Below are positions 1 through 58,165 of a stretch of DNA of 64,000 nt, one piece after another. Below the pieces are notes generated by a model. That model did no database searches. It was not told the DNA's origin and saw only the letters and a list, made by a program, of their open reading frames with translations. Location: assembly GCA_028694995.1 (NCBI GenBank), contig JAQVJU010000002.1:2046-66045 (forward strand), read 5' to 3'. A program made the translations under genes and the position numbers. Position 1 is the stretch's first letter. Each line of letters starts with the position of its first letter. The stretch comes from Minisyncoccota bacterium (GTDB lineage: Bacteria; Patescibacteriota; Minisyncoccia; UBA6257).

Positions 1-50
1 GGAATTGTCGGGTAATTAACTATTAAAACCAATAGTTACTTGGTTTTAAG

Positions 51-139
51 TTATCCCCAATAGACTTGACAAGGTTTTTATATTTGCTATACTAATAATG
101 CTGTCGTTTTTGGCTTGCCAAAGGCGACAGCATTTTTTT
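51..139 (+). repeat. Copy 1 of the repeated DnaA-box-like/promoter/hairpin module (TTATCCCCA variant - TTGACA - 16 nt - TATACT - hairpin GCTGTCG..CGACAGC - T7)
   Basis: Read directly. -35 TTGACA at 66-71, -10 TATACT at 88-93. Hairpin 100-131 followed by a T-tract. Near-identical to the modules at 2943, 5903, 6717 and 7563. Confidence 0.7.
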
Positions 140-257
140 ATCTCATATTATTTAGGAAGTTTTATATCTTTAATTCTTGACAAACTTATAATAAAGATAT
201 ATTATAACTCAATTAAGAACTTTGAAAACTTAATAAAAAAAAGAAAGGAGAGAAAAA

Positions 258-1435: not shown

Positions 1436-2209
1436 ATGTACGGAGGACCTCAAACTATATCTGGAAGTATAATTCATATTCTATGTCGTTACCCTATTTT
1501 AGTAGTTCCTATAGCTCTGGGCCTTATCTTTGGAATACCTAACTTATCTCAAGTTGCTGAAGATAGTTTACCTAGCTCAATGATAACTTTTGCTTTTGAT
1601 GATGGGTATTTTTCTACTTATGAAAAAGCTTTTCCTATTTTAGAAAAATATACATTTCCGGCTACGGTTTTTGTAATTTCTTCAGTAATTGGAGAACCAG
1701 GTCATATGACTGCGGAACAAATTCTAGAATTGGCAGATAAAGGATGGGAGATTGGTTCTCATACTGAAACTCATTCTGATTTAACTCAGCTTACTGATGA
1801 ACAATTAAAACATGAGCTTGTAAACTCAAAGCAACATCTTGAAGAACTGGGTTTAATAGTAAAGAACTTTGCCTCTCCTTATGGCAAGTATGACGAAAGG
1901 GTTATTAAAATGATAGCTAAGTATTATGATTCTCATCGAACCGCTTGGCCAGATGGGTTAAATGATTTACCCTTAGATAATTTAAATCGTTATTACTTGA
2001 AATCTGTTTCAGTTGAAGCTAGAACGACTATAGAAGAAGTGAAAGAGTGGGTAATAAAAGCAAAGAATGAAGGGAAATGGTTAATTCTCCTTTTCCATCG
2101 CATTGATGAAACAGGCGATTATAACTGGACCTCAAGGGATTTTGAAGAAATTGTTAAATTTGTGCACGAGGAAAAGTTTAAAGGAGTTTCAATTAAAGAA
2201 ATGAGGTGA
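1436..2209 (+). CDS. Polysaccharide deacetylase (NodB homology / CE4 family)
   Basis: N-terminal TM segment. CE4 motifs TFAFDDGY and GSHTETHSDL. RBS GGAGGTGA 7 nt upstream. Adjacent to the GT2 synthase. Confidence 0.8.
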   Translation: MYGGPQTISGSIIHILCRYPILVVPIALGLIFGIPNLSQVAEDSLPSSMITFAFDDGYFSTYEKAFPILEKYTFPATVFVISSVIGEPGHMTAEQILELADKGWEIGSHTETHSDLTQLTDEQLKHELVNSKQHLEELGLIVKNFASPYGKYDERVIKMIAKYYDSHRTAWPDGLNDLPLDNLNRYYLKSVSVEARTTIEEVKEWVIKAKNEGKWLILLFHRIDETGDYNWTSRDFEEIVKFVHEEKFKGVSIKEMR

Positions 2210-2355
2210 TGATTTTATAAAATGATAAAAGGGAAGATAAATCTTCCCTTTTTAATTTAAACCTTATATATTGACAAAATTGTATAAATGATATATAATC
2301 TTGATATATTTGAACTAGTAACTTGAAAATTAAAAAATGAAAGGAGGTGAAAGAA

Positions 2356-2898
2356 ATGAGAAAAAGATTGTTAATCTTAGTGGTTTTAATGGTATTATTC
2401 TTGGGTGCTTGTAGAGACGGAGCAATAATTCCTTCAGTGACAGAAGATATAGAGATTTGGGTAACTGGCTTTGAGCAAGAGGTATTCTGCAATAACGCTA
2501 AGGGTGTCACCAGGGTTTTTAATGGAGACTTACCTAAAGATTTGACAAGATGTTATGGTCCTCCTAGCTGTTGCCCTCCATGTAATTGCCCAGTATGTGA
2601 AGTATGTGAAGAATGCTCAGAATGTCCAACTTGCCCTTCTTGTGGACCTTGCTGCTGTTATTTGAAATGGGGAAATGTCTACGTTGATTACAAAATGAAG
2701 AATTTAGGGTTAAAGGATTTAACCGTTAAAAATGTTTGTTTTGAAATCACGTTTGAAGACAACACAAAAACTGTTAAATGCGTGGAATTACAAGAAGGTT
2801 TACTAGAGGGAGAAGTAAAAGGTAAACAAGCTAAATTCACTCTCTCTCCTGTCAAGAGAGTGATTTACGTTGTTGTGCAAAAAATAGAATATTATTAA
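2356..2898 (+). CDS. Cysteine-rich lipoprotein (signal peptide + lipobox LGAC; CxxC/CC cluster)
   Basis: Start chosen at the ATG preceded by AAGGAGGTGA. Lipobox L-G-A-C. A 30-residue tract CCPPCNCPVCEVCEECSECPTCPSCGPCCC. Confidence 0.55.
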   Translation: MRKRLLILVVLMVLFLGACRDGAIIPSVTEDIEIWVTGFEQEVFCNNAKGVTRVFNGDLPKDLTRCYGPPSCCPPCNCPVCEVCEECSECPTCPSCGPCCCYLKWGNVYVDYKMKNLGLKDLTVKNVCFEITFEDNTKTVKCVELQEGLLEGEVKGKQAKFTLSPVKRVIYVVVQKIEYY

Positions 2899-2942
2899 AA
2901 CCAAAAGGGACTATATTATATAGTCTCTTTTTCATTTTAAAA

Positions 2943-3031
2943 GTTATCCACAATAGACTTGACAAGGGATTTGGATTTGATATACTAATAATGCTGTCGT
3001 TTTTGGCTTGCCAAGGGCGACAGCATTTTTT
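2943..3031 (+). repeat. Copy 2 of the DnaA-box/promoter/hairpin module (TTATCCACA 2944-2952, TTGACA 2959-2964, TATACT 2981-2986, hairpin 2993-3024, T-tract)
   Basis: Read directly from the sequence. Confidence 0.7.
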
Positions 3032-3072
3032 ATTCCATAGTTTGCGAAATTATTAATTAATGAATAAAAGAC

Positions 3073-3199
3073 TTGACAATTTTTATTTATCATGTATACT
3101 GTTTTGTAGTGGGGTAAGCTTTTCCGGAAGAGCTTATAAAACCTATTTTCCAAAATTTTGGAGGTTTTAAAGTGGCGTTGAAAAACGCCACTTTTTTTT
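3073..3199 (+). ncRNA. Candidate small RNA: consensus sigma70 promoter (TTGACA 3073-3078, TATACT 3095-3100) driving a ~95-nt transcript that ends at the intrinsic terminator GTGGCG-TTGAAAAA-CGCCAC-T8 (3172-3199)
   Basis: Promoter spacing of 16 nt and a perfect terminator. An internal stem AAGCT-TTTCCGGAAG-AGCTT. No ORF above 9 codons. Confidence 0.4.
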
Positions 3200-3408
3200 A
3201 ACTTAATTCCTTGATTGTTTTAAAGAAGATCCTATTATTTATTGATAATATAATAATTAAGATTTACAAATTGAATTATTAAGTATTGATTAATAAAATT
3301 TTCTAATAATGATCTTTAAAATAACTCTTAAGAATTATTTTTTAAATTTAAAATTAAATTTTTAAAAATTTCCTTAAATTTGACAAATTTGTTTTTTATT
3401 TAAAAAAC

Positions 3409-3612
3409 TTGACAAGGACTTGACAAATAAAAAATAATAGAGTATCATGTAAGTACGGTGGGGTTCTCCCCTGGGTCTGCAAAGGCCCAGGGGAGACTAC
3501 TACTAAGTAGATAAACAATAAAAATGGTGGGATGCTCTCTTTTAAACAAATACAAAAGTTTATCTGCTTCCGAGGCAGATTAGTTAAATTGACGTTATTC
3601 GTCAATTTTTTT
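3409..3612 (+). ncRNA. Candidate structured small RNA (~160 nt): duplicated TTGACA (3409-3414, 3420-3425), 17-nt spacer, TATCAT (3443-3448), GC-rich stems, and terminator TTGACG-TTATTC-GTCAA-T7 (3589-3612)
   Basis: A strong 10-bp stem CTCCCCTGGG..CCCAGGGGAG, which is unusual against the AT-rich background. A second stem TCTGCTTC-CGA-GGCAGA. No plausible ORF. The antisense 69-aa ORF 3396..3605 is judged spurious. Confidence 0.45.
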
Positions 3613-3818
3613 AATTAACCACTAGATTAACTATTAGGGATTAAAAAAAGAATATTGCAGGAAGATTAGTGTTTGTGTTTTCCCCATATCAGAAATCCTC
3701 CTAATAGTTCATGATGGGACAATAGATCTATTAAAAGTGATTTTAATTTCCTTAATGATTAATTAAAAGATTATTTTGTTTCCTATGCATTTAATTATTT
3801 CAGATTTTAGTAAACATA

Positions 3819-4298
3819 ATGAATTTGATTAAACATAGAAAATTTTTACAATTATTATCATTTTTAGTAATAATAATTTGTTCTTTGTTATTTTTAATAA
3901 ATGATGTTGATGCTAAAAGAGGTTGTTGTTCTTGGCATGGCGGAGTATCTCATTGTGACTCATCGGTTGGGGGATATGTTTGTAATGATGGCACCTATAG
4001 TCCTTCTTGTACTTGCGGGGTTATAATCCCTGTTCCTATTCCTTCCCCAACTACTCTTGAGCCTACTACAACGACTACTAAACCTACAACTACAACAATA
4101 ATTGGTATAACACCCGCTGCTGTATTAGAAACAGAAATTCAAGAAAAAAACCTAGGAATAGAGGAAGAACTAGAATTTTCAGCTTCTGAAAAATTAATGG
4201 CACAAGTACATAAAGAAAACATTGGTATTTCTGCTTGGTGGTGGATAATAGGCATAGGGGCTATATCTTATTTGTTTGTCTATAAATTTAAAAAATAA
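3819..4298 (+). CDS. Secreted Cys/His-rich protein with Pro/Thr-rich linker and C-terminal TM anchor followed by basic tail (KFKK)
   Basis: N-terminal hydrophobic signal or anchor. Motif GCCSWHGGVSHCDSSVGGYVCNDGTYSPSCTC. Linker TTTTTKPTTTT. C-terminal TM segment. Confidence 0.5.
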   Translation: MNLIKHRKFLQLLSFLVIIICSLLFLINDVDAKRGCCSWHGGVSHCDSSVGGYVCNDGTYSPSCTCGVIIPVPIPSPTTLEPTTTTTKPTTTTIIGITPAAVLETEIQEKNLGIEEELEFSASEKLMAQVHKENIGISAWWWIIGIGAISYLFVYKFKK

Positions 4299-4334
4299 AA
4301 AACTAAAGGTCGAAAATTAATGAATTAAAAAAAT

Positions 4335-5846
4335 ATGAATAAAAAATTTCTTACAAAAACATTTGCAATTGCAATGGTATTAAGTTTATTACTTTCTAAT
4401 GGATTGATGTTAGGATTGGAGAGAGCAGAAGCAAAAGTAAGAAAAGAAGACCCTAGTAAAAATGGAAATGGGAATGGGAATGATGAATTATATCTTTGTC
4501 ATTTTGAAGATGAAGGAGATAATCCTTATACAAAGATACTAGGGTTTGAGAAGAATAGCATAGCTGGCGAGCATGATAAAGACGAAGATGATATTATTCC
4601 TAGTTATCTTTATACTTCAGACTGTGATGTGGAAAATCATAACTGTAAACTAAAAAAAATAGATTGGGGGAATTCTAAGACGCAAGGAAGTGTTTTGGGA
4701 GACTCTATTAATCTTGATGGGCATTTATGGCAAGGGTCACAAGAATTAGCTTCAATTATTGGGGATAGCACAAATATTAAGGTTTCTTTTTCAGATCCCC
4801 TTATGGCATATGTTATAGATCTTAAAATAAAAGAAAAAGATTCAAAAGGAAAAATATTATCTGAAAAAGATTATGCTTCTAAATGCCAAGGTCCAGAGGG
4901 TTGTACTCTTTCTCCGGAAGAAGGAATTAAGTTTTACTCTGTAAGTTGGGATCTGCAAAAAGTTAACAAATTTCACTATGAGTGTTATTATCCTGGTAAA
5001 AATTTGGAGAGTGGGCAAGACATTTTAAATAATAATTGCGAGGTTCCCTCAGAAAATGAAAATGGGGAAGGGAATGGGGAAGGGAATGGAGAAGGGGATG
5101 GAGAAGGGAATGGAGGAGGGAATGGAGAAGGAACTACAACTACTACAACAACAAGACCTGGTCCTACAGGTTCACATATTCCACCACAAGAAGCTCATGG
5201 GGAAGGCTCTTTAGGAGAACCTGGCCCTGGGGAGGGTATTGTAGCTGGTGCTGCTTGTGTTCCTTATATCCAAGAATATATTCAATATGGAGCTGATAAT
5301 GATCCATTTGAAGTTAGGAAATTACAAATCTTCTTAAATGGATATTTGGGATTGAATTTAGATGTTAATGGAATTTATGATTTAGAAACATTTGAAGCTG
5401 TAAAAACATTCCAACTTATGTTCAAGGATGATATTTTAGCTCCTTGGGTTGCAAATGGATGCTTACCTTCAAAAGAAATAGCTACGGGTTATGTTTATCG
5501 AACTACTAGTTGGGCGATTAATAAAGTTTTTTGCCCAGGAATGGAAATAGATATTTCTGATGAAATATGTTTTGGCTTAGGTGAAGGATTAGTTTTAGGA
5601 GAATCTATTGCCTTAGCTGATGATGGCTCAATGTCAGAAGGAGATATTTTAGATTTTCCTGTTAGTTCTGAACAAGAACCAGAAGAAGAAGTAATGGAAA
5701 TTTCAGAAACTGAAGATATAGAAACAACAGAATTAGAAGAAACAGAAGAAGAAACAGCAACTAATAAAGGAGCCATAATAGCTTTATTAGTTGTTTTAGC
5801 CTTAGGTGGCTTAGCTTACTTTATCTTTAGAGGAAAACGAACTTGA
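4335..5846 (+). CDS. Large secreted surface protein: signal peptide, GNGNGNG and GEGNGEGNG repeats, Thr7 linker, PG_binding_1-like domain, acidic E/T-rich tract, C-terminal TM anchor + RGKRT tail
   Basis: The segment VRKLQIFLNGYLGLNLDVNGIYDLETFEAVKTFQ matches the peptidoglycan-binding (PG_binding_1) consensus. The C-terminus AIIALLVVLALGGLAYFIFRGKRT forms a TM anchor plus basic tail. Confidence 0.6.
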   Translation: MNKKFLTKTFAIAMVLSLLLSNGLMLGLERAEAKVRKEDPSKNGNGNGNDELYLCHFEDEGDNPYTKILGFEKNSIAGEHDKDEDDIIPSYLYTSDCDVENHNCKLKKIDWGNSKTQGSVLGDSINLDGHLWQGSQELASIIGDSTNIKVSFSDPLMAYVIDLKIKEKDSKGKILSEKDYASKCQGPEGCTLSPEEGIKFYSVSWDLQKVNKFHYECYYPGKNLESGQDILNNNCEVPSENENGEGNGEGNGEGDGEGNGGGNGEGTTTTTTTRPGPTGSHIPPQEAHGEGSLGEPGPGEGIVAGAACVPYIQEYIQYGADNDPFEVRKLQIFLNGYLGLNLDVNGIYDLETFEAVKTFQLMFKDDILAPWVANGCLPSKEIATGYVYRTTSWAINKVFCPGMEIDISDEICFGLGEGLVLGESIALADDGSMSEGDILDFPVSSEQEPEEEVMEISETEDIETTELEETEEETATNKGAIIALLVVLALGGLAYFIFRGKRT

Positions 5847-5894: not shown

Positions 5895-5902
5895 TTTCTT
5901 AA

Positions 5903-5999
5903 GTTATCCACAAAAGACTTGACAAGGTTTTTATATTTGCTATACTATTAGTGCTGTCATTTAGAGAAGCTTGCTTCAATGAATGACAGCATTTTTTTT
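5903..5999 (+). repeat. Copy 3 of the module (TTATCCACA 5904-5912, TTGACA 5919-5924, TATACT 5941-5946, variant hairpin GCTGTCATT..AATGACAGC 5953-5990, T8)
   Basis: The stem is conserved and extended by compensatory changes while the loop is replaced. Confidence 0.7.
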
Positions 6000-6157
6000 A
6001 TAATTTTTTGATAAAAGAAGTGATTAGTCATCTCTTTTTTTATTTGTTAATTAATTAAAGATAGTTTTAATTTATATTGACTTTAAGTATTTAAAATGGT
6101 ATAATTATAAAAGGATAAAAGAGTTCTTTTAAAAATAAAAATAAGGAGGAAAAGAAA

Positions 6158-6694
6158 ATGGAAGAGAGAAAAAAGAAAGTTTTTATTTTAATTTTTGCTG
6201 TGGTTTTTATATTCATTTTAGTAGATTATGTAAATTGGAGATTATCCCATAATTGGGAGATTGTAGATACCAATTTACCAGTTGAAACCATAAACAGCAC
6301 CGTATGGAGAAGCGCAAGTATAGATATACTTGATCCTATCAAATCTCCTCCAAAAAGTTATGAGTATTCAAATCTTAGGATAGCGGCATTTAAGGTACGG
6401 TACCCTAAAGCTAAGGGAGGAGGATATGTTCATGAAGTTTTTCTTAGGGAGTGGTTTAAGAGGAGTAACTTAAAAGTTCGCTATACGGGCTTTGAAGGGA
6501 TACCGGATTTTTATATTGCTGTAGAATTCATACAGGGAAGAATGGAAATCATCAGTGATAGCAAGTTATATAATTATAAAGGAGAAATCTTTATAGAATT
6601 ATTTTCCAATAATAAGAATTTACTGGCTCAAAAAAGAATTAAGGTAAACATAAATAACAAACCGCCAGAGGTAAAAGAATTAACAGGGCTTTAA
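6158..6694 (+). CDS. Hypothetical N-terminally membrane-anchored protein, paralog A of a tandem pair
   Basis: Strong RBS AAGGAGGA. N-terminal TM helix. Shares the motifs YPK.K, NLK and F..V.FI.GR..I...Y.GEI.I.L with the 6967..7539 product. Confidence 0.5.
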   Translation: MEERKKKVFILIFAVVFIFILVDYVNWRLSHNWEIVDTNLPVETINSTVWRSASIDILDPIKSPPKSYEYSNLRIAAFKVRYPKAKGGGYVHEVFLREWFKRSNLKVRYTGFEGIPDFYIAVEFIQGRMEIISDSKLYNYKGEIFIELFSNNKNLLAQKRIKVNINNKPPEVKELTGL

Positions 6695-6706: not shown

Positions 6707-6716
6707 CATTTCTTGA

Positions 6717-6806
6717 GTTATCCACAAAAGACTTGACAAGGTTTTTAAATTTGCTATACTAATAATGCTGTCGTTTTTGGCTTGCCAGAAGCGGCAGCAT
6801 TTTTTT
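6717..6806 (+). repeat. Copy 4 of the module (TTATCCACA 6718-6726, TTGACA 6733-6738, TATACT 6755-6760, hairpin GCTGTCG..CGGCAGC with a U-G wobble, T7)
   Basis: Read directly from the sequence. Confidence 0.7.
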
Positions 6807-6966
6807 ATAATTTTTTGATAAAAGAGATGATTTATCATCTCTTTTTTAATGGTTAATTAATTAAAGATAGTTTTAATTTATATTGACTTTAATCATTTAA
6901 AATGGTATAATTATAAAAAGATAAAAGAGTTCTTTTAAAAATAAAAATTAAAGAGGAGAGAAAAAA

Positions 6967-7539
6967 ATGAAAAAGGTTTTTATAGTTATTCTAATTATAA
7001 TTATAGGGTTATTTTTAATAGATTTTATAGGTTATGTAATAAAATCAAGCTATAAAGAGAATAAGGAGCTGGGGGGAAGTTGGGAAATCGAAAGTTTAGA
7101 CCTGCCAATCATAATAAGAAAAAACTGTATCGTAGTGGGGGGTCCAAGTTGGGAACCAGAAGACCCTTTGCCCTCAAGAGTTGAAAGGGATGTATTTTTA
7201 GAAATGAGGGTAGCCAATTTTAGAATATACTACCCTAAAACAAAAAATATAGTCCATGAAATTGATCTCCAAATGTGGGAAAAGCAGGGAAACTTGAAGT
7301 TATATGTCGCTAGACCTGAAGAGTCGAACCCCTTCAAAATGAGTACTGTAAAGTTTATAGAGGGGAGAGTAGATATCTGGCTTAGAATGGAAGTCGGTAA
7401 GTATGAGGGGGAGATTCATATTCAGCTAATTAATAATGACGGGATATTAATAGGTGAAGGCAAGGCCTTTGTGGAAGTAAATATAGAAAAGGGGGTGCTA
7501 GAGATACTAGAAGAAGAATTTAATATAACAGGGTCTTAA
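6967..7539 (+). CDS. Hypothetical N-terminally membrane-anchored protein, paralog B of the tandem pair
   Basis: A ~150-bp upstream region, including a TTGACT-17-TATAAT promoter and RBS, is about 90% identical to that of 6158. The proteins are much more diverged than these flanks. Confidence 0.5.
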   Translation: MKKVFIVILIIIIGLFLIDFIGYVIKSSYKENKELGGSWEIESLDLPIIIRKNCIVVGGPSWEPEDPLPSRVERDVFLEMRVANFRIYYPKTKNIVHEIDLQMWEKQGNLKLYVARPEESNPFKMSTVKFIEGRVDIWLRMEVGKYEGEIHIQLINNDGILIGEGKAFVEVNIEKGVLEILEEEFNITGS

Positions 7540-7562
7540 GGCTCTGTTTTTATTATTTCTGA

Positions 7563-7652
7563 GTTATCCACAAAAGACTTGACAAGGTTTTTATATTTGC
7601 TATACTAATAATGCTGTCGTTTTTGGCTTGCCAGAAGCGGCAGCATTTTTTT
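7563..7652 (+). repeat. Copy 5 of the module (TTATCCACA 7564-7572, TTGACA 7579-7584, TATACT 7601-7606, hairpin 7613-7644, T7)
   Basis: Read directly from the sequence. Confidence 0.7.
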
Positions 7653-7744
7653 ATAATTCTTATTATTGACAAAAAGACAATAACAAGATATTATCTAAAT
7701 TAGATATTTAGTACTTTGAAAATTAAAAAAGGAGATATTAAAAA

Positions 7745-10520: not shown

Positions 10521-11231
10521 ATGGAAAAAGAGAAATTTGAACAATTAGTAAGTCAGTCTTTAAAGAAAATCCCTTACAACTTTTTGAATAAAATGGAAAA
10601 TATTGCTATAGTAGTACAGGATGAGCCAACAGAATTTCAAAAAGAAAAATTAGGATATATAGATGGTAATTGTTTATTAGGTCTTTATGAAGGAGTGCCT
10701 CAAATCAAAAGAGGATATTATTATCAAGCTGTGCCTGATAAAATCACCTTTTTTAAAAACAATATTGAAAGAGTGGCTAATAAAAAGGAAGAAAGAATAA
10801 AAGAAATAATAGAAGAAACAGTTTGGCATGAGATTGGACATCATTTTGGCCTAGATGAAGATGAAATTAAAGAGCATATAAAAAGAAAAAAACCATTTTC
10901 AGATAAAAAAATGATTAATTTTAAAGAATTTGAACAATTAGATTTGCGAATTGCAAAAATATTAAAAGCAGAAAAATTAGAAGGTACTGATAAGTTGCTT
11001 GTTTTAGAGATAGATTTAGGAGAAGAGAAAAGACAAATCATTGCAGGTATTGGTCATCAATACAAACCAGAATTATTAATTAATAAAAAGATAGTGGTGG
11101 TGGCTAATCTAGAACCCAGGGAAATAAAAGGCAAATTAAGCCAAGGAATGCTTTTGGCTGTTGATACCTCTCAAGGACCAGTATTATTAATTCCTGAAGG
11201 TGAAGTTTTGCCAGGCAGTAAGGTAAAATAA
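10521..11231 (+). CDS. Fusion protein: zincin-like metallopeptidase domain (HEIGHHFGLDEDE; Zincin_1/DUF1025-like) + C-terminal tRNA-binding (CsaA/EMAP/Myf-like OB) domain
   Basis: N-terminal HExxH with a downstream acidic cluster. C-terminal segment LRIAKILKAEKLEGTDKLLVLEIDLGEEKRQIIAGIG...VVVANLEPREIKGKLSQGMLLA matches tRNA_bind. Confidence 0.6.
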   Translation: MEKEKFEQLVSQSLKKIPYNFLNKMENIAIVVQDEPTEFQKEKLGYIDGNCLLGLYEGVPQIKRGYYYQAVPDKITFFKNNIERVANKKEERIKEIIEETVWHEIGHHFGLDEDEIKEHIKRKKPFSDKKMINFKEFEQLDLRIAKILKAEKLEGTDKLLVLEIDLGEEKRQIIAGIGHQYKPELLINKKIVVVANLEPREIKGKLSQGMLLAVDTSQGPVLLIPEGEVLPGSKVK

Positions 11232-12204: not shown

Positions 12205-14625
12205 ATGAAGAAAAAATACATTTTATGGTTTAAAGAAATAGGCATTAAAGATGTCTTAGATGTTGGTGGTAAAAACGGATCTTTAGGAGAGATGTATAAT
12301 AGCCTTTCTAAAAAAGGAGTTAATATTCCTAATGGTTTTGCTCTAACCTCGGCTGCTTATTGGCATTTTATTAAAGAAAACAATTTTGAAAAACAATTAA
12401 AAGATATTTTTGCTGGTTTTAATCCAAAGAGTATAAAGAGCTTACAAGAAATTGGTAGAAAATCTAGAAGACTTATCTTAAGTGGAAAATTTCCTGAAGA
12501 TTTGAAAAAAGAAATCTTCAAAGCCTATAAAACATTAGAAAAAAAATATGGCAAAAATTGTGAAACAGCAGTGAGGTCTTCTGGAGTAGCAGAAGATTCT
12601 CCCAGGGATTCTTTTGCTGGTCAATTTGAAACATTCTTAAATGTTAAAGGCGAAGAAGATTTATTAATTGCTATTAGGAAATGCTTGGCTTCTTCTTTTA
12701 ATGATCGAGTGATTACTTATCGGGAAGAGAAAAAACTTTCTCATTTTAAATTTGCTCTTTCAATTGGCGTGCAAAAGATGGTTAGATCAGATTTATCTTC
12801 TTCGGGCATTATGTTTACCTTAGACACAGAATCAGGTTTTCCTAATATTATTTTGATTAATTCTATCTATGGTTTAGGAGAAATGATTGTTAAGGGATTG
12901 ATTACGCCAGATGAATTTTATGTTTTTAAACCAACCTTGGCTCAAGGTTATGAAGCGATTATTAGAAAAGATTTAGGCAGGAAAACAAAAAAATACATTT
13001 ATGATAAAAAGGGAGGCATTAAAGAAATGCCTGTTTCTCTAAAAGACCAAGAAAAGTTTTCTTTAAATGATAAAGAAATTTTAACCTTGGCTAAGTGGGG
13101 AGTAATTATTGAAGATTACTATTCCAAATTGAATAAAAGATGGATGCCTCAGGATATTGAATGGGCTAAGGATGGTAAAACAGGAGAATTATTCATTGTT
13201 CAATCAAGGCCAGAAACAGTTCATGCAGTCAGATCAAATATTTATCAAGAATATAAACTTAAAACAACAAAAAAACCCTTTTTAACTGGAATTGCTATTG
13301 GTAATAAGATAGGCACAGGCAAGGTAAGAGTGGTTACTAGTGTTTCCAAACTTTCTGAATTTAAAAAAGGAGAGGTTTTAGTCACTAAGATGACAGACCC
13401 AGATTGGACCTCTGTGTTTCCAATGGCTTCAGCCATTATTACTGATGAAGGCAGTAAGACTTGTCATGCCGCTATTATCTCTAGGGAATTAGGCGTGCCT
13501 TGTATTGTTGGTGCTCGGGAAGCCACTAAGAAATTAAAAAATGGGCAAGAGGTAACTGTTGATTGCACTCAGGGATTAGATGGCAGGATTTTTGATGGCA
13601 AGGTATCATTTGAAATTAAAGAATACAATTTTAAGAAATTCCCAAAGGTAAAAACCAAGATTATGATGAATGTTGGCGCTCCTGAAATTGCTTTTTCATC
13701 TTCATTTTTGCCCAATGAAGGTGTAGGATTGGCTAGAGAAGAATTTATCATAGCTGAAAAAATCAGAATTCATCCTTTGGCTTTGTATCATTATATGAAA
13801 CTTAAAAAAGAGAATACAAAGATTAAAGATAAATCTCAAAAAGCAAAGATGGATAGAATTATTCATCAAATAGAAAAATTAACTATTGAGCATAAAGATA
13901 AGAAAGAATATTTTATTAAAGAATTAGCAGAAGGCATTGCTCAAATCGGAGCGGCTTTTTATCCGAAAGAAGTGATAGTGAGGTTTTCTGATTTTAAAAC
14001 CAATGAATATCGTAATTTAATAGGAGGGGAATTGTATGAAGGAGAAGAAGCTAATCCAATGTTAGGCTTTAGAGGCGCTTGTCGCTATATTGACCCTCAG
14101 TTTAAACCAGCTTTCTTAATGGAATGCGAGGCGATTAAAAGAGCAAGAGAGGTATTTGGTTTAAAAAATATTTCAATCATGGTTCCATTTTGTCGAACCA
14201 TAAAAGAGGGCAAAGCTTCAAAAAAATTAATTCAAGAATCAGGTTTGTTAAGTAATAGCCAACCACCTAAGCTATATGTAATGTGTGAGATTCCTTCTAA
14301 TGTTATCTTAGTAGAAGAATTCCTTGATATTTTTGATGGCATGAGTATTGGTTCAAATGATTTAACTCAATTAGCCCTTGGTATTGATCGAGATAATGCA
14401 GTTATTCAAAAGATAGGTGATGAAAGAGATGAAACAGTAAAGAGAATGATTGCGACTGTAATTAAAGCCTGTAAGAGAAGAAAGAAATATGTAGGCATTT
14501 GCGGTCAGGCCCCAAGTGATTTTATGGATTTTGCTAAATTCTTAGTAGAGCAGGGAATAGAAAGTATGTCTTTGAATCCAGATACAGTGATTAAAACTAT
14601 TTTAGAAATTAGTAAAATAAAATAG
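12205..14625 (+). CDS. ppsA: Phosphoenolpyruvate synthase (pyruvate, water dikinase)
   Basis: N-terminal GGKNGSLGEM. Central phosphohistidine domain (TDEGSKTCHAAIISRELGVPCIVG). C-terminal PEP-utilising domain. Confidence 0.85.
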   Translation: MKKKYILWFKEIGIKDVLDVGGKNGSLGEMYNSLSKKGVNIPNGFALTSAAYWHFIKENNFEKQLKDIFAGFNPKSIKSLQEIGRKSRRLILSGKFPEDLKKEIFKAYKTLEKKYGKNCETAVRSSGVAEDSPRDSFAGQFETFLNVKGEEDLLIAIRKCLASSFNDRVITYREEKKLSHFKFALSIGVQKMVRSDLSSSGIMFTLDTESGFPNIILINSIYGLGEMIVKGLITPDEFYVFKPTLAQGYEAIIRKDLGRKTKKYIYDKKGGIKEMPVSLKDQEKFSLNDKEILTLAKWGVIIEDYYSKLNKRWMPQDIEWAKDGKTGELFIVQSRPETVHAVRSNIYQEYKLKTTKKPFLTGIAIGNKIGTGKVRVVTSVSKLSEFKKGEVLVTKMTDPDWTSVFPMASAIITDEGSKTCHAAIISRELGVPCIVGAREATKKLKNGQEVTVDCTQGLDGRIFDGKVSFEIKEYNFKKFPKVKTKIMMNVGAPEIAFSSSFLPNEGVGLAREEFIIAEKIRIHPLALYHYMKLKKENTKIKDKSQKAKMDRIIHQIEKLTIEHKDKKEYFIKELAEGIAQIGAAFYPKEVIVRFSDFKTNEYRNLIGGELYEGEEANPMLGFRGACRYIDPQFKPAFLMECEAIKRAREVFGLKNISIMVPFCRTIKEGKASKKLIQESGLLSNSQPPKLYVMCEIPSNVILVEEFLDIFDGMSIGSNDLTQLALGIDRDNAVIQKIGDERDETVKRMIATVIKACKRRKKYVGICGQAPSDFMDFAKFLVEQGIESMSLNPDTVIKTILEISKIK

Positions 14626-14670
14626 GTTGTATTGTTGGCTTTGTATTTTTGCAGATAATAAAAAATCATA

Positions 14671-15888: not shown

Positions 15889-16879
15889 ATTAACAGAACA
15901 GGAAAAGAGAATTTTAGAAAAATATCCTGATTTTTTAGAATTAATTGATTTTACTCAAGAGAAATTAAGTTTGGAAAATGTTAATCAATATGTGGATTAT
16001 GAAGTGGTTTCTGTTTTTATTGGATCTCAATTATCTCAAGAAGTTTTAAAACAATTAAAGAATTTGAAATTAATTGCCACTCGCTCTACTGGTTTTGACC
16101 ATATTGATTTGAATTATTGCAAAGATAATAATATTTTAATATCTAATGTGCCAGATTATGGAGAGCATACAGTGGCAGAATATACATTTGCTTTATTATT
16201 ATGCTTAATAAGAAAAGTTTACAATGCTTATCATCAAGTTAGGGAAACAGGTAGTTTTTCCTTAGAAGGATTACAAGGCAGAGAATTGTATGGAAAAGTT
16301 TTAGGAGTGATTGGGGTTGGTAAAATTGGCAGGGAAGTAATTAAAATAGCTAAAGGATTTTCAATGAAGGTAATTGCTTATGATAAATATCCTCAAGAAG
16401 AATTAGCCAAACAATTAGGATTTGAATATGTGGATTTGGAAAATCTTTTATCTGTTTCTGATGTGATTAGTTTGCATGTTCCTCATAATAAAGAAACTCA
16501 TCATTTAATAAATAAGGATAATATATTCAAAACAAAACCCGGTTGTTATATCATTAACACAGCTCGGGGAGGAATAATAGAAACCCAGGCGCTTTATGAG
16601 GCAATAAAGAATAATCATCTTGGTGGCGCTGCTTTGGATGTTTTAGAAGAAGAAGGGGATTTAAAAGAAGAGCAGAGAATGCTTATGGAAAAACAAGATA
16701 TTCCTTCTGAAAAATTAAAAATCCTTTTAGCTAATCATGTGTTTATAGATTTAGATAATGTGATTGTTTCGCCTCATAATGCTTTTAATACTCAGGAAGC
16801 TTTGGCGAATATTGTGATAAAAACAATAGAGAATATTAAACAATTCCAAATATCAAAACCTATTAATTTAATAAATTAA
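15866..16879 (+). CDS. D-isomer-specific 2-hydroxyacid dehydrogenase (NAD-binding)
   Basis: Rossmann fold GVIGVGKIGREV. Catalytic R/E/H arrangement. Confidence 0.8.
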   Translation: MKKIIFFELTEQEKRILEKYPDFLELIDFTQEKLSLENVNQYVDYEVVSVFIGSQLSQEVLKQLKNLKLIATRSTGFDHIDLNYCKDNNILISNVPDYGEHTVAEYTFALLLCLIRKVYNAYHQVRETGSFSLEGLQGRELYGKVLGVIGVGKIGREVIKIAKGFSMKVIAYDKYPQEELAKQLGFEYVDLENLLSVSDVISLHVPHNKETHHLINKDNIFKTKPGCYIINTARGGIIETQALYEAIKNNHLGGAALDVLEEEGDLKEEQRMLMEKQDIPSEKLKILLANHVFIDLDNVIVSPHNAFNTQEALANIVIKTIENIKQFQISKPINLIN

Positions 16880-16883
16880 AAAC

Positions 16884-17246
16884 ATGTTAAAAGATGATTG
16901 TGTTTTTTGTAAGATAATAAAAGGGGAAATACCTTCAGAGAAATATTATGAAGATGATGATTTTTTAGCTATTTTTGATATTCATCCAATTGCTAAAGGT
17001 CATCTTGTATTGTTTTCCAAGAATCATACGGCTAATGTTGGAGAAATGCCTGAACAAGAATGGCAGAAGATTTGTTCTTTAGCTAGAGAATTAGCAGAAA
17101 AACATATGAAAGAATTAAAGGCTGATGGTTATAACTTAATGATTAATCAAGGAGAAGCAGCACAATCTGAAGTTGCTCATCGGCCACATATTCATATTGT
17201 GCCTCGTTATTTTAATGATGGTATTAAAGTAGATCCTAGAGGATAA
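16884..17246 (+). CDS. HIT-family (histidine triad) nucleotide hydrolase
   Basis: H-x-H-x-H motif HRPHIHIVPR. Confidence 0.8.
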   Translation: MLKDDCVFCKIIKGEIPSEKYYEDDDFLAIFDIHPIAKGHLVLFSKNHTANVGEMPEQEWQKICSLARELAEKHMKELKADGYNLMINQGEAAQSEVAHRPHIHIVPRYFNDGIKVDPRG

Positions 17247-18067
17247 TGAAGAATAAGATTGTTGTTTTAGATTTTGATGGAACCTTAACTCAGGTTAAAG
17301 AAGAAGCTAAACCATTTTTAAAAAGTTTTAAGAAGGATTATGCTAATTTTCTAAGTAAAGATAATTTAGATAAAGAATGGGAAGAGATAGAAAAGGAAAT
17401 TCTGAAAAATCCTGAACAATATGGTTGGAAAGATAAGGGATTGATTATTGCTCCAGCTAAAGTTGATGACTATATTTTAGCCTCAGTTGTTGCCCAAGTT
17501 CTTTTAGATAAATATGATGTATTTAAAAAAGACAAAGAAAGAGATGAAATTGTTCATCAGATTTTCCGTCAGAATTATTTAAAGAGTAAAATTTGTTTTA
17601 AAAAAGAGGCTAAAGAAGTTTTAGAAAAATTAATTAAAAAATTACCAGTTTTTATAGTAACTAATTCAAGGCCAGATGCGGTTTTGAATAAAATACAGGT
17701 ATTAAATCCTTTAGGTAAAGAAAAATTGAAAATCTTTGGTGATGCACAAAAAAATTGGCTTGATGCCAATTTTGATTTAGTGCCTGAGTTTATAAAAATA
17801 CAAGGTTTGGAAAGAAAGATTTATTTAAGGAGAAAACGATATTATGATGTTTTAAATCAAATCTGGGAACAATCATCTGTGAAACCAGAACAATGTTTGA
17901 TAGTGGGTGATGTTTTTGAATTGGATTTGGTTTTGCCCGCTAAACTTGGTTGTAATATTTTCTTAATTACTAATTCTCAAACACCTGATTATGAAAAACA
18001 AGCGGTAAAGGATTTATTCAAAGGCTGTGTTAGTGAGAATATTAGAGATATTTTAAAAGTAATTTAA
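17246..18067 (+). CDS. HAD-superfamily hydrolase
   Basis: Motif I VLDFDGTLT. Distal GDxxxD-like VGDVFELD. Confidence 0.5.
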   Translation: MKNKIVVLDFDGTLTQVKEEAKPFLKSFKKDYANFLSKDNLDKEWEEIEKEILKNPEQYGWKDKGLIIAPAKVDDYILASVVAQVLLDKYDVFKKDKERDEIVHQIFRQNYLKSKICFKKEAKEVLEKLIKKLPVFIVTNSRPDAVLNKIQVLNPLGKEKLKIFGDAQKNWLDANFDLVPEFIKIQGLERKIYLRRKRYYDVLNQIWEQSSVKPEQCLIVGDVFELDLVLPAKLGCNIFLITNSQTPDYEKQAVKDLFKGCVSENIRDILKVI

Positions 18068-45030: not shown

Positions 45031-45990
45031 ATGAAAAGAAGCAATCAACCAATCCCCTCCTATTTAAATGATTTTTTAGATTGGTTAGAAATACAAAAAG
45101 GATTATCATCTAAGACACAAGAAAACTATGCAAGGTTTTTAAAAAAGTTTTTAGATTGGTTAAAAGAAAACAAGATGGAAGAGCTTAAACCTCATGAGCT
45201 ATCTTCTGATCATATATGGGATTATCGGGTTTTTCTATCTCGTCAATCTGTTAGTCATTTAGGTAGACCTCTTAAAAAATCCACCCAGAATTATTATTTG
45301 ATAGCTTTAAGGTCTTTATTAAATTTCTTTGCTGATAAAGATATTCTTTCATTACCAGCTGAGAAAATAGAATTAGCCAGAGATAAAGGAGATAAACAAA
45401 TAAGGTTCTTAGATTTAGAACAATTGGAAAGATTATTTTCTGCGCCTGATATTTCAAAAATTCAAGGATTAAGAGATAGAGCTATCTTAGAAATTTTCTT
45501 TTCAACAGGAATGCGTATTTCAGAATTAACTTCATTAAATCGTGAACAAATCAAAATCAAACCCAACATTACTGATTTAGAATTAAGTATTATTGGTAAA
45601 GGTGGCCGGATGAGAACTGTATATATCTCAGAAAGAGCTTTGTCTTGGTTAAAAAAATACTTAGATTTACGAGAAGATAAAGAAAAAGCTTTGTTTGTAA
45701 ATCATCAAATTAAAAAAGGTGTTCCAAAAAGATTAACTAATCGCTCTATAGAAAAATCAATGAAAAAGTATGTGATTATGGCTGGTTTACCTTTAAATAC
45801 TACGCCTCATGTTTTAAGACATTCTTTTAGCACTGATTTATTAGCTCAAGGTGTTGATATTAGAATTCTTCAAGAATTTTTAGGTCATAAGAATATTGCA
45901 GCTACTCAGATTTACGCTCATGTAACTAATAAGAAACTTAGAGAAATTCACCGGAAGTTTCATGGTGGTAGAAAACAAAAATTACTTTAA
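45031..45990 (+). CDS. Tyrosine site-specific recombinase (XerC/XerD/phage-integrase family)
   Basis: N-terminal SAM-like domain. Catalytic R...HxxR...Y (HVLRHSFSTDLL, IYAHV). Followed by the bidirectional terminator at 45998-46023. Confidence 0.8.
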   Translation: MKRSNQPIPSYLNDFLDWLEIQKGLSSKTQENYARFLKKFLDWLKENKMEELKPHELSSDHIWDYRVFLSRQSVSHLGRPLKKSTQNYYLIALRSLLNFFADKDILSLPAEKIELARDKGDKQIRFLDLEQLERLFSAPDISKIQGLRDRAILEIFFSTGMRISELTSLNREQIKIKPNITDLELSIIGKGGRMRTVYISERALSWLKKYLDLREDKEKALFVNHQIKKGVPKRLTNRSIEKSMKKYVIMAGLPLNTTPHVLRHSFSTDLLAQGVDIRILQEFLGHKNIAATQIYAHVTNKKLREIHRKFHGGRKQKLL

Positions 45991-45997
45991 AAGAAAA

Positions 45998-46023
45998 AAC
46001 CGGCTTGGATTAACCAGCCGGTT
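45998..46023. terminator. Bidirectional intrinsic terminator (A-tract - AACCGGCTTGG-ATTAA-CCAGCCGGTT - T-tract) between convergent genes
   Basis: GC-rich 10-bp stem flanked by A and T tracts. Confidence 0.65.
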
Positions 46024-46028
46024 ATTAT

Positions 46029-46334: not shown

Positions 46335-46346
46335 CTTTTACCTCCT

Positions 46347-46595: not shown

Positions 46596-46735
46596 TTGCT
46601 TTTCCTCTCTTTCTTTTTAAATTTTCAAAATACTGATATTATTATATCAGTTATAAAATATTTTGTCAATGGAAAGTAAATGGTAAATCAGTAAAAAATA
46701 TGATAAAATGTTTTAAGTAAAAGATTAATTCAAAT

Positions 46736-58156: not shown

Positions 58157-58165
58157 GTTATTGAT

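What the first reader, a model, noticed from the sequence alone, without database searches (positions are those of the whole stretch)
2356..2898. Lipoprotein with a 30-residue Cys/Pro cluster (CCPPCNCPVCEVCEECSECPTCPSCGPCCC)
After a canonical lipobox (LGAC) and about 50 residues, 15 cysteines occur in 30 residues in CxxC, CC and CPxC spacings. These resemble metallothionein or keratin-associated motifs rather than any common bacterial domain. The C-terminal ~90 residues look like a small beta-rich domain. The tract could be a metal (Cu/Zn) binding or redox-active module displayed on the cell surface. The gene sits between the exopolysaccharide module and a repeat module.
Basis: seen in the sequence. 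Interest (0 to 1): 0.55.

Follow-up and report, generated by a model that had tools for sequence, protein, structure and literature searches.

The report
Hypervariable cysteine-repeat lipoprotein shared with phages
This gene from a tiny uncultured (Pacebacteria/CPR) bacterium encodes a real, lipid-anchored surface protein in which a fast-changing run of cysteine-x-x repeats interrupts an immunoglobulin-like domain; the family is rare and undescribed, is also carried by phages, and whether the run binds metals has not been tested.

Summary
The ORF (2356-2898, +) is real. It has a 12/12 consensus promoter, an RBS, a lipobox (LGAC) and its own terminator. The quoted 30-residue string is exact but holds 13 cysteines, not 15.

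Only about 30 relatives exist among 5.8 billion protein clusters, and none is annotated. AlphaFold places the N-terminal hairpin and the C-terminal strands in a confident strand-rich region. The Cys tract lies between them as a disordered insertion, and two full-length relatives lack it.

Across the family the tract is 36% Cys, 19% Pro and 21% Glu/Asp, with almost no Lys/Arg/His. 64% of Cys-Cys spacings are CxxC (about 15% expected). dN/dS is about 0.1. Length runs from 0 to 77 residues through in-frame tandem duplications, and Cys parity is random.

Relatives occur at a syntenic chromosomal site in Pacebacteria-like genomes and in at least four groups of phage contigs. Against a sister genome whose flanks are 93-96% identical, the ORF is only 65-77% identical.

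Best reading: a hypervariable surface lipoprotein at the phage-host interface, carrying a polythiol finger selected for composition. Metal-thiolate binding is most likely and disulfide cross-linking is the main rival. Neither chemistry nor role is proven.

The parts
2271..2299 (+). Sigma-70-type promoter TTGACA-17-TATAAT (12/12 match) dedicated to this gene
2343..2347 (+). Ribosome-binding site GGAGG, 8 nt upstream of the ATG
   Evidence: read from the sequence
2356..2898 (+). CDS of the 180-aa lipoprotein (stop included). It is 100% identical to the hypothetical protein PHH35_01345 of a Candidatus Pacebacteria MAG.
2356..2412 (+). Sec/SPII-type signal peptide with lipobox LGAC. Cys19 is the predicted lipid-modified first residue of the mature protein. 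A G/A/S-C lipobox is found in all but one (P0031) of the 32 full-length relatives examined.
   Evidence: weak LPAM_1 hits for two members
2413..2550 (+). N-terminal part of the Ig-like beta-sandwich: strands at residues 32-45 and 51-55, helix at 61-67. It carries the family motif V-T-G-F-E-Q-E-V.
   Evidence: AlphaFold pLDDT 96 for residues 31-40 and 80-82 for residues 41-60; alignment
2551..2658 (+). Cys/Pro/acidic (C-x-x)n tract, residues 66-101, with 14 Cys. It is a disordered insertion loop and hypervariable in length among relatives. It contains a 9-nt tandem repeat at 2592-2615.
2659..2895 (+). C-terminal five strands of the beta-sandwich (residues 102-180), with family motifs L-K-W-G-D-L-x-V-D and K-R-V-V-F-V-E
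2903..2931 (+). Intrinsic terminator (13-bp stem plus T-run) ending the monocistronic unit

Best explanation
SHOWN:
- The gene is a self-contained transcription unit. It encodes a Sec-exported, lipobox-bearing protein of a rare, unannotated family.
- The mature protein models as a confident Ig-like beta-sandwich. The loop between its N-terminal hairpin and its C-terminal strands is replaced by a disordered (Cys-x-x)n tract.
- Tract composition is conserved: Cys about 36%, Pro or Glu at x1, essentially no basic or aromatic residues.
- Tract length and sequence turn over quickly through in-frame tandem duplication.
- The family occurs at one syntenic chromosomal site in Pacebacteria-like CPR genomes and in several phage genomes. 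The ORF diverges far more than its flanks between sister genomes.

INFERRED (role): after lipidation the protein sits on the outer face of the cell membrane. It acts at the phage-host interface, as a superinfection-exclusion or surface-masking type of lipoprotein. Alleles are exchanged or kept diverse by conflict.

INFERRED (tract mechanism): the tract is a projecting polythiol, polyanionic finger. It works through bulk thiol chemistry, not through a fixed fold.
- Its most likely state on the surface of an anaerobic, quinone-less CPR cell is reduced and loaded with thiophilic metal ions (Zn, Cu(I), Ni, Co, Fe, Cd), as in metallothioneins and phytochelatins.
- The metal would rigidify the finger and/or be captured by it.
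- Capacity would scale with the number of C-x-x units.
For: Gene and export signals.

Family rarity: 3 close and 28 total clusters in 5.8e9, and 22 representatives in 1.84e9 by exhaustive HMMER. No library annotation exists.

Insertion architecture: both AlphaFold models give confident strands on either side of the tract and a tract with pLDDT below 50. Tract-less members P0012 and P0025 join the hairpin directly to the C-domain. P0012 sits at the same syntenic locus.

Compositional selection:
- C 0.358, P 0.189, E 0.152, D 0.060.
- K and H occur at about 0.001 each and R is absent from the composition table; aromatics total about 1.5%.
- 213 of 331 Cys-Cys gaps equal 3. About 15% would be expected by chance (my calculation from 36% Cys).

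Purifying selection: tract dN/dS is 0.09-0.14, and many aligned Cys pairs differ only by TGT/TGC.

Repeat-driven turnover:
- DNA tandem repeats of period 9 and of periods 30 and 24.
- P0026 and P0028 are otherwise near-identical but differ by 27 residues, or nine C-x-x units.
- P0002 and P0003 have nearly identical flanks but a scrambled tract.

Metallothionein-like behaviour: Cys parity is random, 17 even and 15 odd. That argues against a defined intramolecular disulfide fold. Capacity is modular, the apo form is disordered and aromatics are nearly absent.

Phage carriage:
- L022-L024 are IMG/VR contigs with RecE, RecT, SbcC and a ParB-methyltransferase next to the gene.
- L012 has RecT and DnaB.
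- L014 has portal and Mom.
- L008 is a 66-kb contig of small same-strand ORFs.

Divergence hotspot: the ORF is 65-77% identical, against 92.6-95.6% for both flanks and 94.2% for YchF.

Established knowledge (not tested here): Patescibacteria are fermentative and lack respiratory chains and quinones, which classical DsbB/VKOR-driven disulfide formation needs. The window itself shows only fermentative and central genes and no Dsb, thioredoxin-like or VKOR gene.
Against: - No metal-binding family is matched, and no metal-transport or resistance gene is a conserved neighbour.
- Metallothioneins normally use Lys to offset the negative charge of thiolate clusters. Here basic residues are excluded and acidic ones enriched, which would leave a metal cluster highly anionic.
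- Two or three members lack the tract, so it is not essential to the family's core function.
- Cys128 and Cys142 in the sandwich co-occur (my count from the alignment: both present in 11 members, neither in 7, one in 2). The tract-less P0012 has exactly two mature Cys. This is the usual signature of a disulfide, so the compartment may be oxidising enough for disulfides.
- Very similar (CPxC)n tracts sit next to the membrane anchor in unrelated giant-virus and archaeal-virus-like membrane proteins. There a structural stalk is the simpler reading.
- The phage-interface role rests only on context and divergence. There is no similarity to any known exclusion protein or defence system, and the chromosomal copies are not inside recognisable prophages.
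- Habitat and redox state were not verified with the tools.
Confidence: 0.35

Rival explanations
1. Disulfide-cross-linked hinge or stalk. The (C-P-x)n run adopts a polyproline-II-like conformation with all Cys on one face, as in the IgG CPPCP hinge core (IgG3 has a repeated hinge). It forms inter-chain or inter-protein disulfides that dimerise the lipoprotein, or staple it to other Cys-bearing surface proteins, giving a rigid, protease-resistant projection.
For: - Strict period 3 with Pro at x1 in about half of the CxxC units.
- Random Cys parity is compatible with intermolecular cross-links.
- The co-occurring Cys128/Cys142 pair, and the exactly two Cys in tract-less P0012, suggest disulfides can form in this compartment.
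- The neighbouring secreted 159-aa protein has a YdcA/PRK10040-like domain with six mature Cys.
- Analogous (CPxC)n tracts lie between the membrane anchor and the ectodomain in giant-virus and other viral membrane proteins.
Against: - No DsbA, DsbB, VKOR or thioredoxin-like gene lies in the 64 kb.
- CPR bacteria are anaerobic fermenters without quinones (established knowledge).
- Excluding basic residues and enriching acidic ones raises thiol pKa and disfavours thiol-disulfide exchange (inference).
- The tract sits inside one domain, as a loop whose two ends must be adjacent, not between domains or at the membrane.
- Members such as P0010 have almost no Pro in long stretches.
Confidence: 0.25
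2. A composition-tolerant hypervariable loop with no thiol chemistry. The tract is a repeat-prone spacer or epitope. Its variability (antigenic or phage-evasion variation) is the selected property, and Cys/Pro/Glu are merely what the founding repeat encoded.
For: - Length ranges from 0 to 77 residues, driven by DNA tandem repeats.
- Between P0002 and P0003 the tract is the fastest-changing part.
- At least one syntenic ortholog (P0012) lacks the tract.
- AlphaFold models it as disordered.
Against: - Cys codons are one mutation away from Arg, Tyr, Ser, Phe, Gly, Trp and stop. Yet Cys stays at about 36% and K/R/H are almost absent across members whose flanks are only 26-55% identical.
- dN/dS is 0.09-0.14, with synonymous TGT/TGC changes at conserved Cys.
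- The CxxC period is kept in independently expanded arrays with different units.
- Neutral repeats would not hold this composition.
Confidence: 0.12
3. A phage lysis accessory, spanin-like or lysis lipoprotein. In phages the lipoprotein acts together with a small membrane protein and a cell-wall hydrolase, and the chromosomal copies are domesticated remnants.
For: - In L022 and L008 the gene lies beside a homologous small single-TM peptide (GIVIGFGIGYLIGS motif) and a secreted 3D-domain protein with peptidase-like PHROG hits.
- L012 and L014 have small TM peptides just downstream.
- Lambda Rz1 is a Pro-rich lipoprotein that forms intermolecular disulfides (established knowledge).
Against: - Spanins serve hosts with an outer membrane, and CPR bacteria are thought to lack one (established knowledge).
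- In phages the gene sits among early, recombination and replication genes.
- Chromosomal orthologs are stand-alone units at a conserved housekeeping-flanked site without a lysin or holin.
- One member has a Lysis_col match that is only lipobox-level noise (E 0.27).
Confidence: 0.08
4. A cofactor-binding tract: iron-sulfur clusters (poly-ferredoxin-like) or haem bound through multiple Cys-Pro motifs, displayed outside the cell.
For: - The composition is acidic, Cys-rich and CP-containing, like clostridial ferredoxins, and CxxCxxC runs occur.
- Cys-Pro dipeptides are haem-regulatory motifs in other proteins (established knowledge).
Against: - The spacing is CxxCxxCxxC(P), not the CxxCxxCxxxCP of 4Fe-4S ferredoxins (read from the sequences), and there is no Fer4 Pfam hit.
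- The signal peptide is Sec/SPII type with no twin-arginine motif, so a pre-assembled cofactor could not be exported.
- Cys number is variable and positions are not conserved.
Confidence: 0.05

Closest known systems
Metallothioneins and phytochelatin-type polythiols (including bacterial SmtA and MymT, and engineered surface-displayed (Glu-Cys)n peptides)
   Same: About one-third Cys in CxxC, CC and CxC spacings. Aromatics and His are almost absent. The apo form is disordered. The sequence is hypervariable while composition is conserved. Cys number grows by tandem duplication. Glu and Cys alternate as in phytochelatins.
   Different: No match to any metallothionein Pfam model. Pro-rich with a strict period of 3. 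Lys is excluded instead of used. The protein is exported and lipid-anchored. The tract is an insertion inside a folded beta-sandwich. Metal binding is untested.
Immunoglobulin hinge core (CPPCP; the repeated IgG3 hinge) and keratin-associated high-sulfur proteins
   Same: C-P-x-C-P repeats with a polyproline-II-compatible period of 3. Repeat number varies. Cys parity is irrelevant because the bonds are intermolecular.
   Different: Those proteins work in oxidising compartments and lie between domains or as whole proteins. They carry basic and hydroxyl residues. Here the tract is acidic, sits inside one domain, and belongs to an anaerobic bacterium with no detected oxidase.
DnaJ/Ydj1 zinc-finger-like region (four CxxCxGxG motifs binding two Zn), inserted in the beta-sandwich C-terminal domain I
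   Same: A hairpin-like CxxC-repeat excursion inserted into a beta-sandwich, with its two ends adjacent. This is a resemblance recalled from knowledge, not tested structurally.
   Different: No GxG signature and no PF00684 hit. Cys number is variable and not a multiple of four. Positions are not conserved. The location is extracytoplasmic.
Phage superinfection-exclusion lipoproteins: Ltp of Streptococcus phage TP-J34 (PMC3952083) and Llp of phage T5 (PMC9586334)
   Same: A phage-encoded lipoprotein displayed on the host cell surface, encoded outside the structural module. Stand-alone promoter and terminator, like a moron. Rapid allelic diversification.
   Different: No sequence or fold relationship. 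No PHROG or PADLOC hit. The function is untested. Most chromosomal copies are syntenic orthologs, not prophage genes.
Small Ig-like beta-sandwich lipoproteins and exported proteins (YajI, YjhA/DUF4352, MPT63, ApaG/DUF1425, Spo0M)
   Same: Same general fold class. Several are lipoproteins of unknown function. The viral structure library returns DUF4352-like phage proteins.
Juxtamembrane (CPxC)n tracts of viral membrane proteins found here: giant-virus contigs L017-L021, archaeal-virus-like L016, and protein P0040
   Same: The same C-P-x period-3 low-complexity module in membrane-anchored viral proteins.
   Different: Unrelated flanking domains. There the tract lies directly between the TM anchor and the ectodomain, and the x residues are N, D, S or K instead of E. 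This is probably convergent.

Membership tests
Bacterial lipoprotein (Sec/SPII substrate) | N-terminal signal peptide with a positively charged n-region, a hydrophobic h-region and a lipobox [LVI][ASTVI][GAS]C | tested here: met
   MRKRLLILVVLMVLFLGAC has three basic residues, a 12-residue hydrophobic core and L-G-A-C. A G/A/S-C lipobox was found in all 32 full-length relatives examined, which did not include P0031 (W in place of the lipobox Cys). There are weak LPAM_1 hits for two members.
Bacterial lipoprotein (Sec/SPII substrate) | Lgt and LspA are present in the genome, and the Cys is actually acylated | not testable with these tools
   Only 64 kb of the MAG is available, and neither gene lies in it.
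Metallothionein families (Pfam metallothionein models) | Significant match to a metallothionein profile | tested here: not met
   Zero Pfam hits at E<=0.1 for the window protein and at E<=1 for 26 family members. NCBIfam gives none.
Metallothionein families (operational definition) | Small, Cys at about 30%, few or no aromatics or His, characteristic CxC/CxxC/CC motifs | tested here: met
   For the tract alone: Cys 35.8%, aromatics about 1.5%, His about 0.1%, CxxC 64%, CC 14%, CxC 9% of spacings. The whole protein is not small and is mostly a folded domain.
Metallothionein families (operational definition) | Binds several metal ions in thiolate clusters | not testable with these tools
   This needs ICP-MS or spectroscopy on recombinant protein.
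DnaJ-type CXXCXGXG zinc finger (PF00684) | Four CxxCxGxG repeats and a profile match | tested here: not met
   No Pfam hit, and the tract has no GxG signature.
4Fe-4S ferredoxin | CxxCxxCxxxCP motif or a Fer4 profile match; cofactor export by Tat if extracytoplasmic | tested here: not met
   The spacing is CxxCxxCxxCP. There is no Fer4 hit and no twin-arginine motif.
Phage superinfection-exclusion lipoproteins (Ltp, Llp and similar) | Homology to a characterised exclusion protein | tested here: not met
   No PHROG or PADLOC family for any of five members. The single hit (phrog_902, E 0.0025) covers only the signal peptide. The structure searches return no exclusion protein.
Phage superinfection-exclusion lipoproteins (Ltp, Llp and similar) | Phage-encoded, surface-exposed lipoprotein outside the structural genes | tested here: met
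   L022-L024, L008, L012/L013 and L014/L015 carry lipobox-bearing members among recombination, replication and early-type genes.
Phage superinfection-exclusion lipoproteins (Ltp, Llp and similar) | Blocks infection or DNA entry by a second phage | not testable with these tools
   This needs an infection assay.
Defined disulfide-knot mini-domains (knottin, defensin or granulin-like) | A fixed, even number of positionally conserved Cys | tested here: not met
   Mature Cys counts are even in 17 members and odd in 15. P0026 and P0028 differ by 9 Cys. Cys positions are not conserved.
DUF4352/YjhA-like Ig-fold lipoproteins | Profile or significant structural match | tested here: inconclusive

The most novel reading that the evidence does not exclude
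CPR bacteria and their phages encode a natural, surface-displayed, genetically expandable polythiol array. It would be a ribosomally made analogue of phytochelatin mounted on an Ig-like lipoprotein. Its C-x-x unit number tunes capture of thiophilic metals, or of metal-sulfide particles, at the cell surface. The locus diversifies through phage-host conflict. That would make it the first extracytoplasmic metallothionein-like module in bacteria and a new class of phage-carried host-surface modifier.
Probability: 0.15. Interest if true: 0.75.

Novelty: new variant of a known kind. Interest (0 to 1): 0.5.

Why it matters
Almost nothing is known about the surface proteins of CPR/Patescibacteria or about how their phages interact with them. 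This analysis defines an unannotated family of about 30 protein clusters with a clear anatomy: a lipid anchor, an Ig-like scaffold and an expandable Cys-x-x finger. The family occurs on both sides of the phage-host divide, and the ORF alone is a divergence hotspot between 94%-identical genomes.

If the finger binds metals, it would be the first exported, membrane-anchored metallothionein-like module in bacteria, and a natural counterpart of engineered metal-binding surface displays. If it forms disulfide cross-links, it would show oxidative protein chemistry on the surface of organisms thought to lack the usual machinery.

Either way, nature provides a simple experimental series: tract-less P0012 (2 mature Cys), the window protein (14 tract Cys), P0002 (20) and P0003 (28).

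Tried and rejected
- **Family libraries.** Pfam, NCBIfam, PHROGs and PADLOC scans of the protein and of 26 relatives gave no family.
- **PDB sequence search.** A profile search returned only noise; the best hit was MCM9 at E 0.014, on Cys-rich residues.
- **Locus scans.** The whole-family profile was too divergent, so subfamily alignments were used. A4 found nothing in viral contigs.
- **Tract-only search.** A protein search with the tract alone found no candidates because the words are low-complexity.
- **Literature.** Searches for CPR Cys-rich lipoproteins, tandem CXXC or polyproline ladders, CPxC stalks in giant viruses, and Patescibacteria disulfide machinery found nothing on this family.
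- **Functional coupling to the exopolysaccharide genes.** Rejected. The GT2 and deacetylase/GH113 neighbours occur only in the window and L001-type genomes. Other orthologs follow L10 and L7/L12 plus small ORFs directly.
- **A defined intramolecular disulfide fold.** Rejected by random Cys parity.
- **Ferredoxin-like cluster binding.** Rejected on motif spacing and the Sec-type signal.
- **A known RNA in the adjacent gap.** Rfam found nothing.
- **Dsb, VKOR or thioredoxin-like genes.** None in the 64-kb window.
- **The neighbour of P0005.** It has one marginal MopE metal-motif hit (28.6 bits against a 27-bit cut-off). I judged this too weak to support metal biology.
Full report
**1. The observation**

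The ORF at 2356-2898 (+) exists as described. It translates to a 180-aa protein. The signal peptide MRKRLLILVVLMVLFLGAC ends in a canonical lipobox, with Cys19 as the predicted lipidated residue. The quoted string CCPPCNCPVCEVCEECSECPTCPSCGPCCC is residues 72-101.

The string holds 13 Cys and 6 Pro, not 15 Cys. Counting from Cys66 there are 14 Cys in 36 residues, and 18 in the whole protein. Cys makes up 1.03% of the long ORFs of the window, and no other real ORF in the 64 kb has a comparable tract. The density is far beyond chance.

The gene has its own signals:
- a perfect TTGACA-17-TATAAT promoter at 2271-2299;
- GGAGG 8 nt before the ATG;
- a hairpin plus T-run terminator at 2903-2931.

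It is 100% identical to a hypothetical protein of a Candidatus Pacebacteria MAG. The rest of the window is a typical CPR chromosome. It encodes SecDF, RpoD, DnaG, Ddl, Mur ligases, ribosomal proteins, PPDK, enolase and a 2-hydroxyacid dehydrogenase.

**2. Anatomy**

No Pfam, NCBIfam, PHROG or PADLOC family matches.

AlphaFold2 was run with 4 and then 26 aligned relatives, and the two models agree:
- strands at 32-45 and 51-55 and a short helix at 61-67, before the tract;
- five strands at 103-179, after the tract, with pLDDT 96-97 in the deeper model;
- residues 67-98 below pLDDT 50.

Two full-length relatives, P0012 and P0025, have no tract. In them the N-terminal hairpin runs straight into the L-K-W-G-D-L motif of the C-terminal part. 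The tract is therefore an insertion loop inside a single domain, and its two ends must lie close together. It is not a linker between two domains.

**3. The family and the behaviour of the tract**

The family is very rare:
- three close relatives;
- 22 representatives at 50% identity among 1.84 billion proteins by exhaustive HMMER;
- 28 clusters among 5.8 billion with the family profile.

All full-length members share the same plan: lipobox, V-T-G-F-E-Q-E-V hairpin, tract, CC-x-L-K-W-G-D-L-x-V-D, sandwich, K-R-V-V-F-V-E.

Across the members the tract composition is as follows:
- 35.8% Cys, 18.9% Pro, 15.2% Glu and 6.0% Asp;
- K and H at about 0.001 each, R absent from the composition table;
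- about 1.5% aromatics;
- 213 of 331 Cys-Cys spacings are exactly 3. About 15% would be expected for randomly placed Cys at that density (my calculation);
- x1 of CxxC is Pro, then Glu, Asp and Gln.

Tract length ranges from 0 to 77 residues. The expansions are in-frame DNA tandem repeats. The window has a period-9 repeat. The P0003 gene has periods of 30 and 24 nt. P0026 and P0028 are otherwise near-identical and differ by 27 residues, or nine C-x-x units.

Where the tract can be aligned, dN/dS is 0.09-0.14, similar to the flanks, and many conserved Cys differ only by TGT/TGC. Between P0002 and P0003 the flanks are almost identical (dS 0.07-0.16), while the tract is rearranged.

Selection therefore maintains the composition and period of the tract, but not its length or exact sequence.

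**4. Genomic contexts**

There are two contexts.

(a) Chromosomal. In several Pacebacteria-like genomes the gene sits at one syntenic site. It lies downstream of LepA-DivIC-MnmA-NifU-IscS and of L10 and L7/L12 plus small ORFs, with or without a GT2 and GH113/deacetylase pair. The tract-less P0012 occupies the same site. The exopolysaccharide-type neighbours are therefore not a conserved association.

(b) Phage.
- IMG/VR contigs L022-L024 carry a member between RecE/RecT/SbcC-like genes, a secreted 3D-domain protein, a small TM peptide and a ParB-methyltransferase.
- L012/L013 place it between RecT and DnaB.
- L014/L015 place it on a contig with portal and Mom.
- L008 is a 66-kb contig of small same-strand ORFs with an SMC-like ATPase and RNase H.

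In a distance tree of the C-domain, the members with phage context fall in branches separate from the chromosomal ones. Few contexts are known, so this is tentative.

**5. A divergence hotspot**

The window and locus L001 come from very similar genomes. Nucleotide identity is as follows:

| Region | Identity |
|---|---|
| Upstream intergenic | 92.6% |
| 920-nt downstream gap | 94.6% |
| Next gene (159 aa) | 95.6% |
| YchF | 94.2% |
| Lipoprotein ORF, signal + N-part | 77% |
| Lipoprotein ORF, tract | 70%, plus 41 codons of indel |
| Lipoprotein ORF, C-domain | 65% |

Both dN and dS are elevated in the ORF. That points to exchange or long-term maintenance of divergent alleles, not a simple burst of amino-acid change.

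Three properties are shared with phage-encoded surface lipoproteins such as Ltp and Llp (PMC3952083, PMC9586334):
- divergence confined to the ORF;
- carriage by phages;
- a moron-like stand-alone promoter and terminator.

There is no homology to these proteins and no functional test.

**6. How the tract most likely works**

The properties shown are these:
- a dense Cys stripe with period 3;
- acidic residues and no basic ones;
- almost no aromatics;
- disorder without a ligand;
- modular length;
- random Cys parity, 17 even and 15 odd mature proteins.

Random parity, together with the nine-Cys difference between near-identical alleles, excludes a defined intramolecular disulfide fold. Bulk thiol chemistry remains.

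I rank metal-thiolate binding first. The features above are the operational hallmarks of metallothioneins and phytochelatins. CPR bacteria are anaerobic fermenters without quinones (established knowledge), and no thiol oxidase gene lies in the window. Exposed thiols are therefore expected to stay reduced and to capture thiophilic cations.

The main rival is disulfide cross-linking in a hinge-like, polyproline-II conformation. Its support is as follows:
- the C-P-x period;
- the co-occurrence of Cys128 and Cys142 (my count from the alignment: both in 11 members, neither in 7, one in 2);
- the exactly two Cys of tract-less P0012;
- the (CPxC)n tracts found next to membrane anchors in unrelated giant-virus and archaeal-virus-like proteins.

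The lack of Lys is atypical for metallothioneins, and a metal cluster here would be strongly anionic. I consider neutral-spacer, lysis-accessory and Fe-S or haem readings less likely, for the reasons given under the rivals.

**7. Comparison with known systems and novelty**

The protein meets the sequence definition of a bacterial lipoprotein. It fails every profile-based membership test tried: metallothionein, the DnaJ CXXCXGXG finger, ferredoxin, known exclusion and defence proteins, and DUF4352. It behaves like a metallothionein or hinge-type polythiol grafted onto an Ig-like lipoprotein, and like a phage-host interface gene, without belonging to any described family.

I rate it a new variant of known kinds, of moderate interest. 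The anatomy, rarity, selection pattern, phage carriage and hotspot status are solid. The chemistry and the biological role are inferred.

Noticed in passing
window 47-148, 2940-3041, 5900-6001, 6714-6815, 7560-7661; also L001 around 6392-6493, 10708-10809, 14540-14641, 16808-16912, 17608-17712: A dispersed 102-nt element has five copies in the first 8 kb of the window. It reads GTTATCCACAA-AGAC-TTGACA-(16/17)-TATACT-AATAAT, followed at once by a 17-bp hairpin (GCTGTCG...CGACAGC) and a T-run. That is a near-consensus promoter followed directly by an intrinsic terminator. Two stem pairs show compensatory changes. Four copies lie 85-160 nt upstream of the next ORF of the surface-protein island; the copy at 2940-3041 lies about 780 nt before the next ORF. 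It could be a tiny hairpin RNA or a promoter-proximal attenuator. Rfam has no match.
   Followed up: partly
window 2899-3818: A 920-nt gap has no ORF of at least 50 aa on the + strand. It contains three successive promoter-plus-terminator units, at about 2959-3027, 3073-3194 and 3409-3608. It is 94.6% identical to the same gap in L001, as conserved as the neighbouring coding genes. These are candidate small RNAs or micro-ORFs.
   Followed up: partly
window 2208-4411 compared with L001 9850-12178: The lipoprotein ORF is 65-77% identical between two genomes whose flanks are 93-96% identical. The gene upstream is also swapped: a polysaccharide deacetylase in the window (1436-2209) and a GH113 in L001 (8701-9867). 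This marks a variable surface-gene island.
   Followed up: yes
window 3819-4298: A 159-aa secreted protein has a Cys-rich domain like E. coli PRK10040 (RGCCSWHGGVSHC...VCNDGTYSPSCTC; NCBIfam E 5e-7, below the family cut-off). A Thr/Pro-rich linker and a C-terminal TM anchor follow. The mature protein has six Cys. It is a conserved neighbour in L001, L002 and L004.
   Followed up: partly
window 4335-5846: A 503-aa secreted protein has (G-N/E-G)n and poly-Thr low-complexity runs, a marginal PG_binding_1 domain and a C-terminal TM anchor with a weak CD1107-like match. Its counterpart in L001 is 795 aa and only its 3' part aligns.
   Followed up: no
window 6158-6694 and 6967-7539: Two paralogous small secreted proteins (178 and 190 aa) have no family match. 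Each is preceded by the same duplicated upstream region (repeats D4 and D5, 90% identity) and by a copy of the 102-nt element.
   Followed up: no
L017 7611-9200, L018 9830-11419, L019 9612-10343, L020 1445-2149, L021 9842-10495, L016 5857-6615; protein P0040: Unrelated viral membrane proteins, on giant-virus MAG contigs and an archaeal-virus-like contig, carry long (CPxCPxC)n tracts directly between a TM anchor and a globular ectodomain. The C-P-x repeat therefore recurs as a juxtamembrane module in viruses.
   Followed up: partly
L022 9204-9955 and L008 7849-7983, 8870-9658: In two phage contigs the lipoprotein gene is flanked by a homologous small single-TM peptide (GIVIGFGIGYLIGSDNGFAK) and a secreted 3D-domain protein with peptidase-like PHROG hits. 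This may be a lysis-type or envelope-acting trio.
   Followed up: partly
window 52409-54353: PriA appears split into two overlapping ORFs. The 3'-DNA-binding domain is in 52409-53257, and the Cys-rich region plus C-terminal domain are in 53226-54353. No helicase-core Pfam hit was reported.
   Followed up: no
window 45031-47911 and onward: A tyrosine integrase (45031-45990) and a PD-(D/E)XK nuclease (46736-47911) lie where the strongly positive GC skew of the first 46 kb drops to about zero and gene orientation becomes mixed.
   Followed up: no
window 23413-24960 and 56803-59194: A TrwB/VirD4-like coupling-protein ATPase with a treble-clef zinc finger lies among housekeeping genes. A complete AMMECR1-Memo-radical SAM trio lies on the minus strand.
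   Followed up: no
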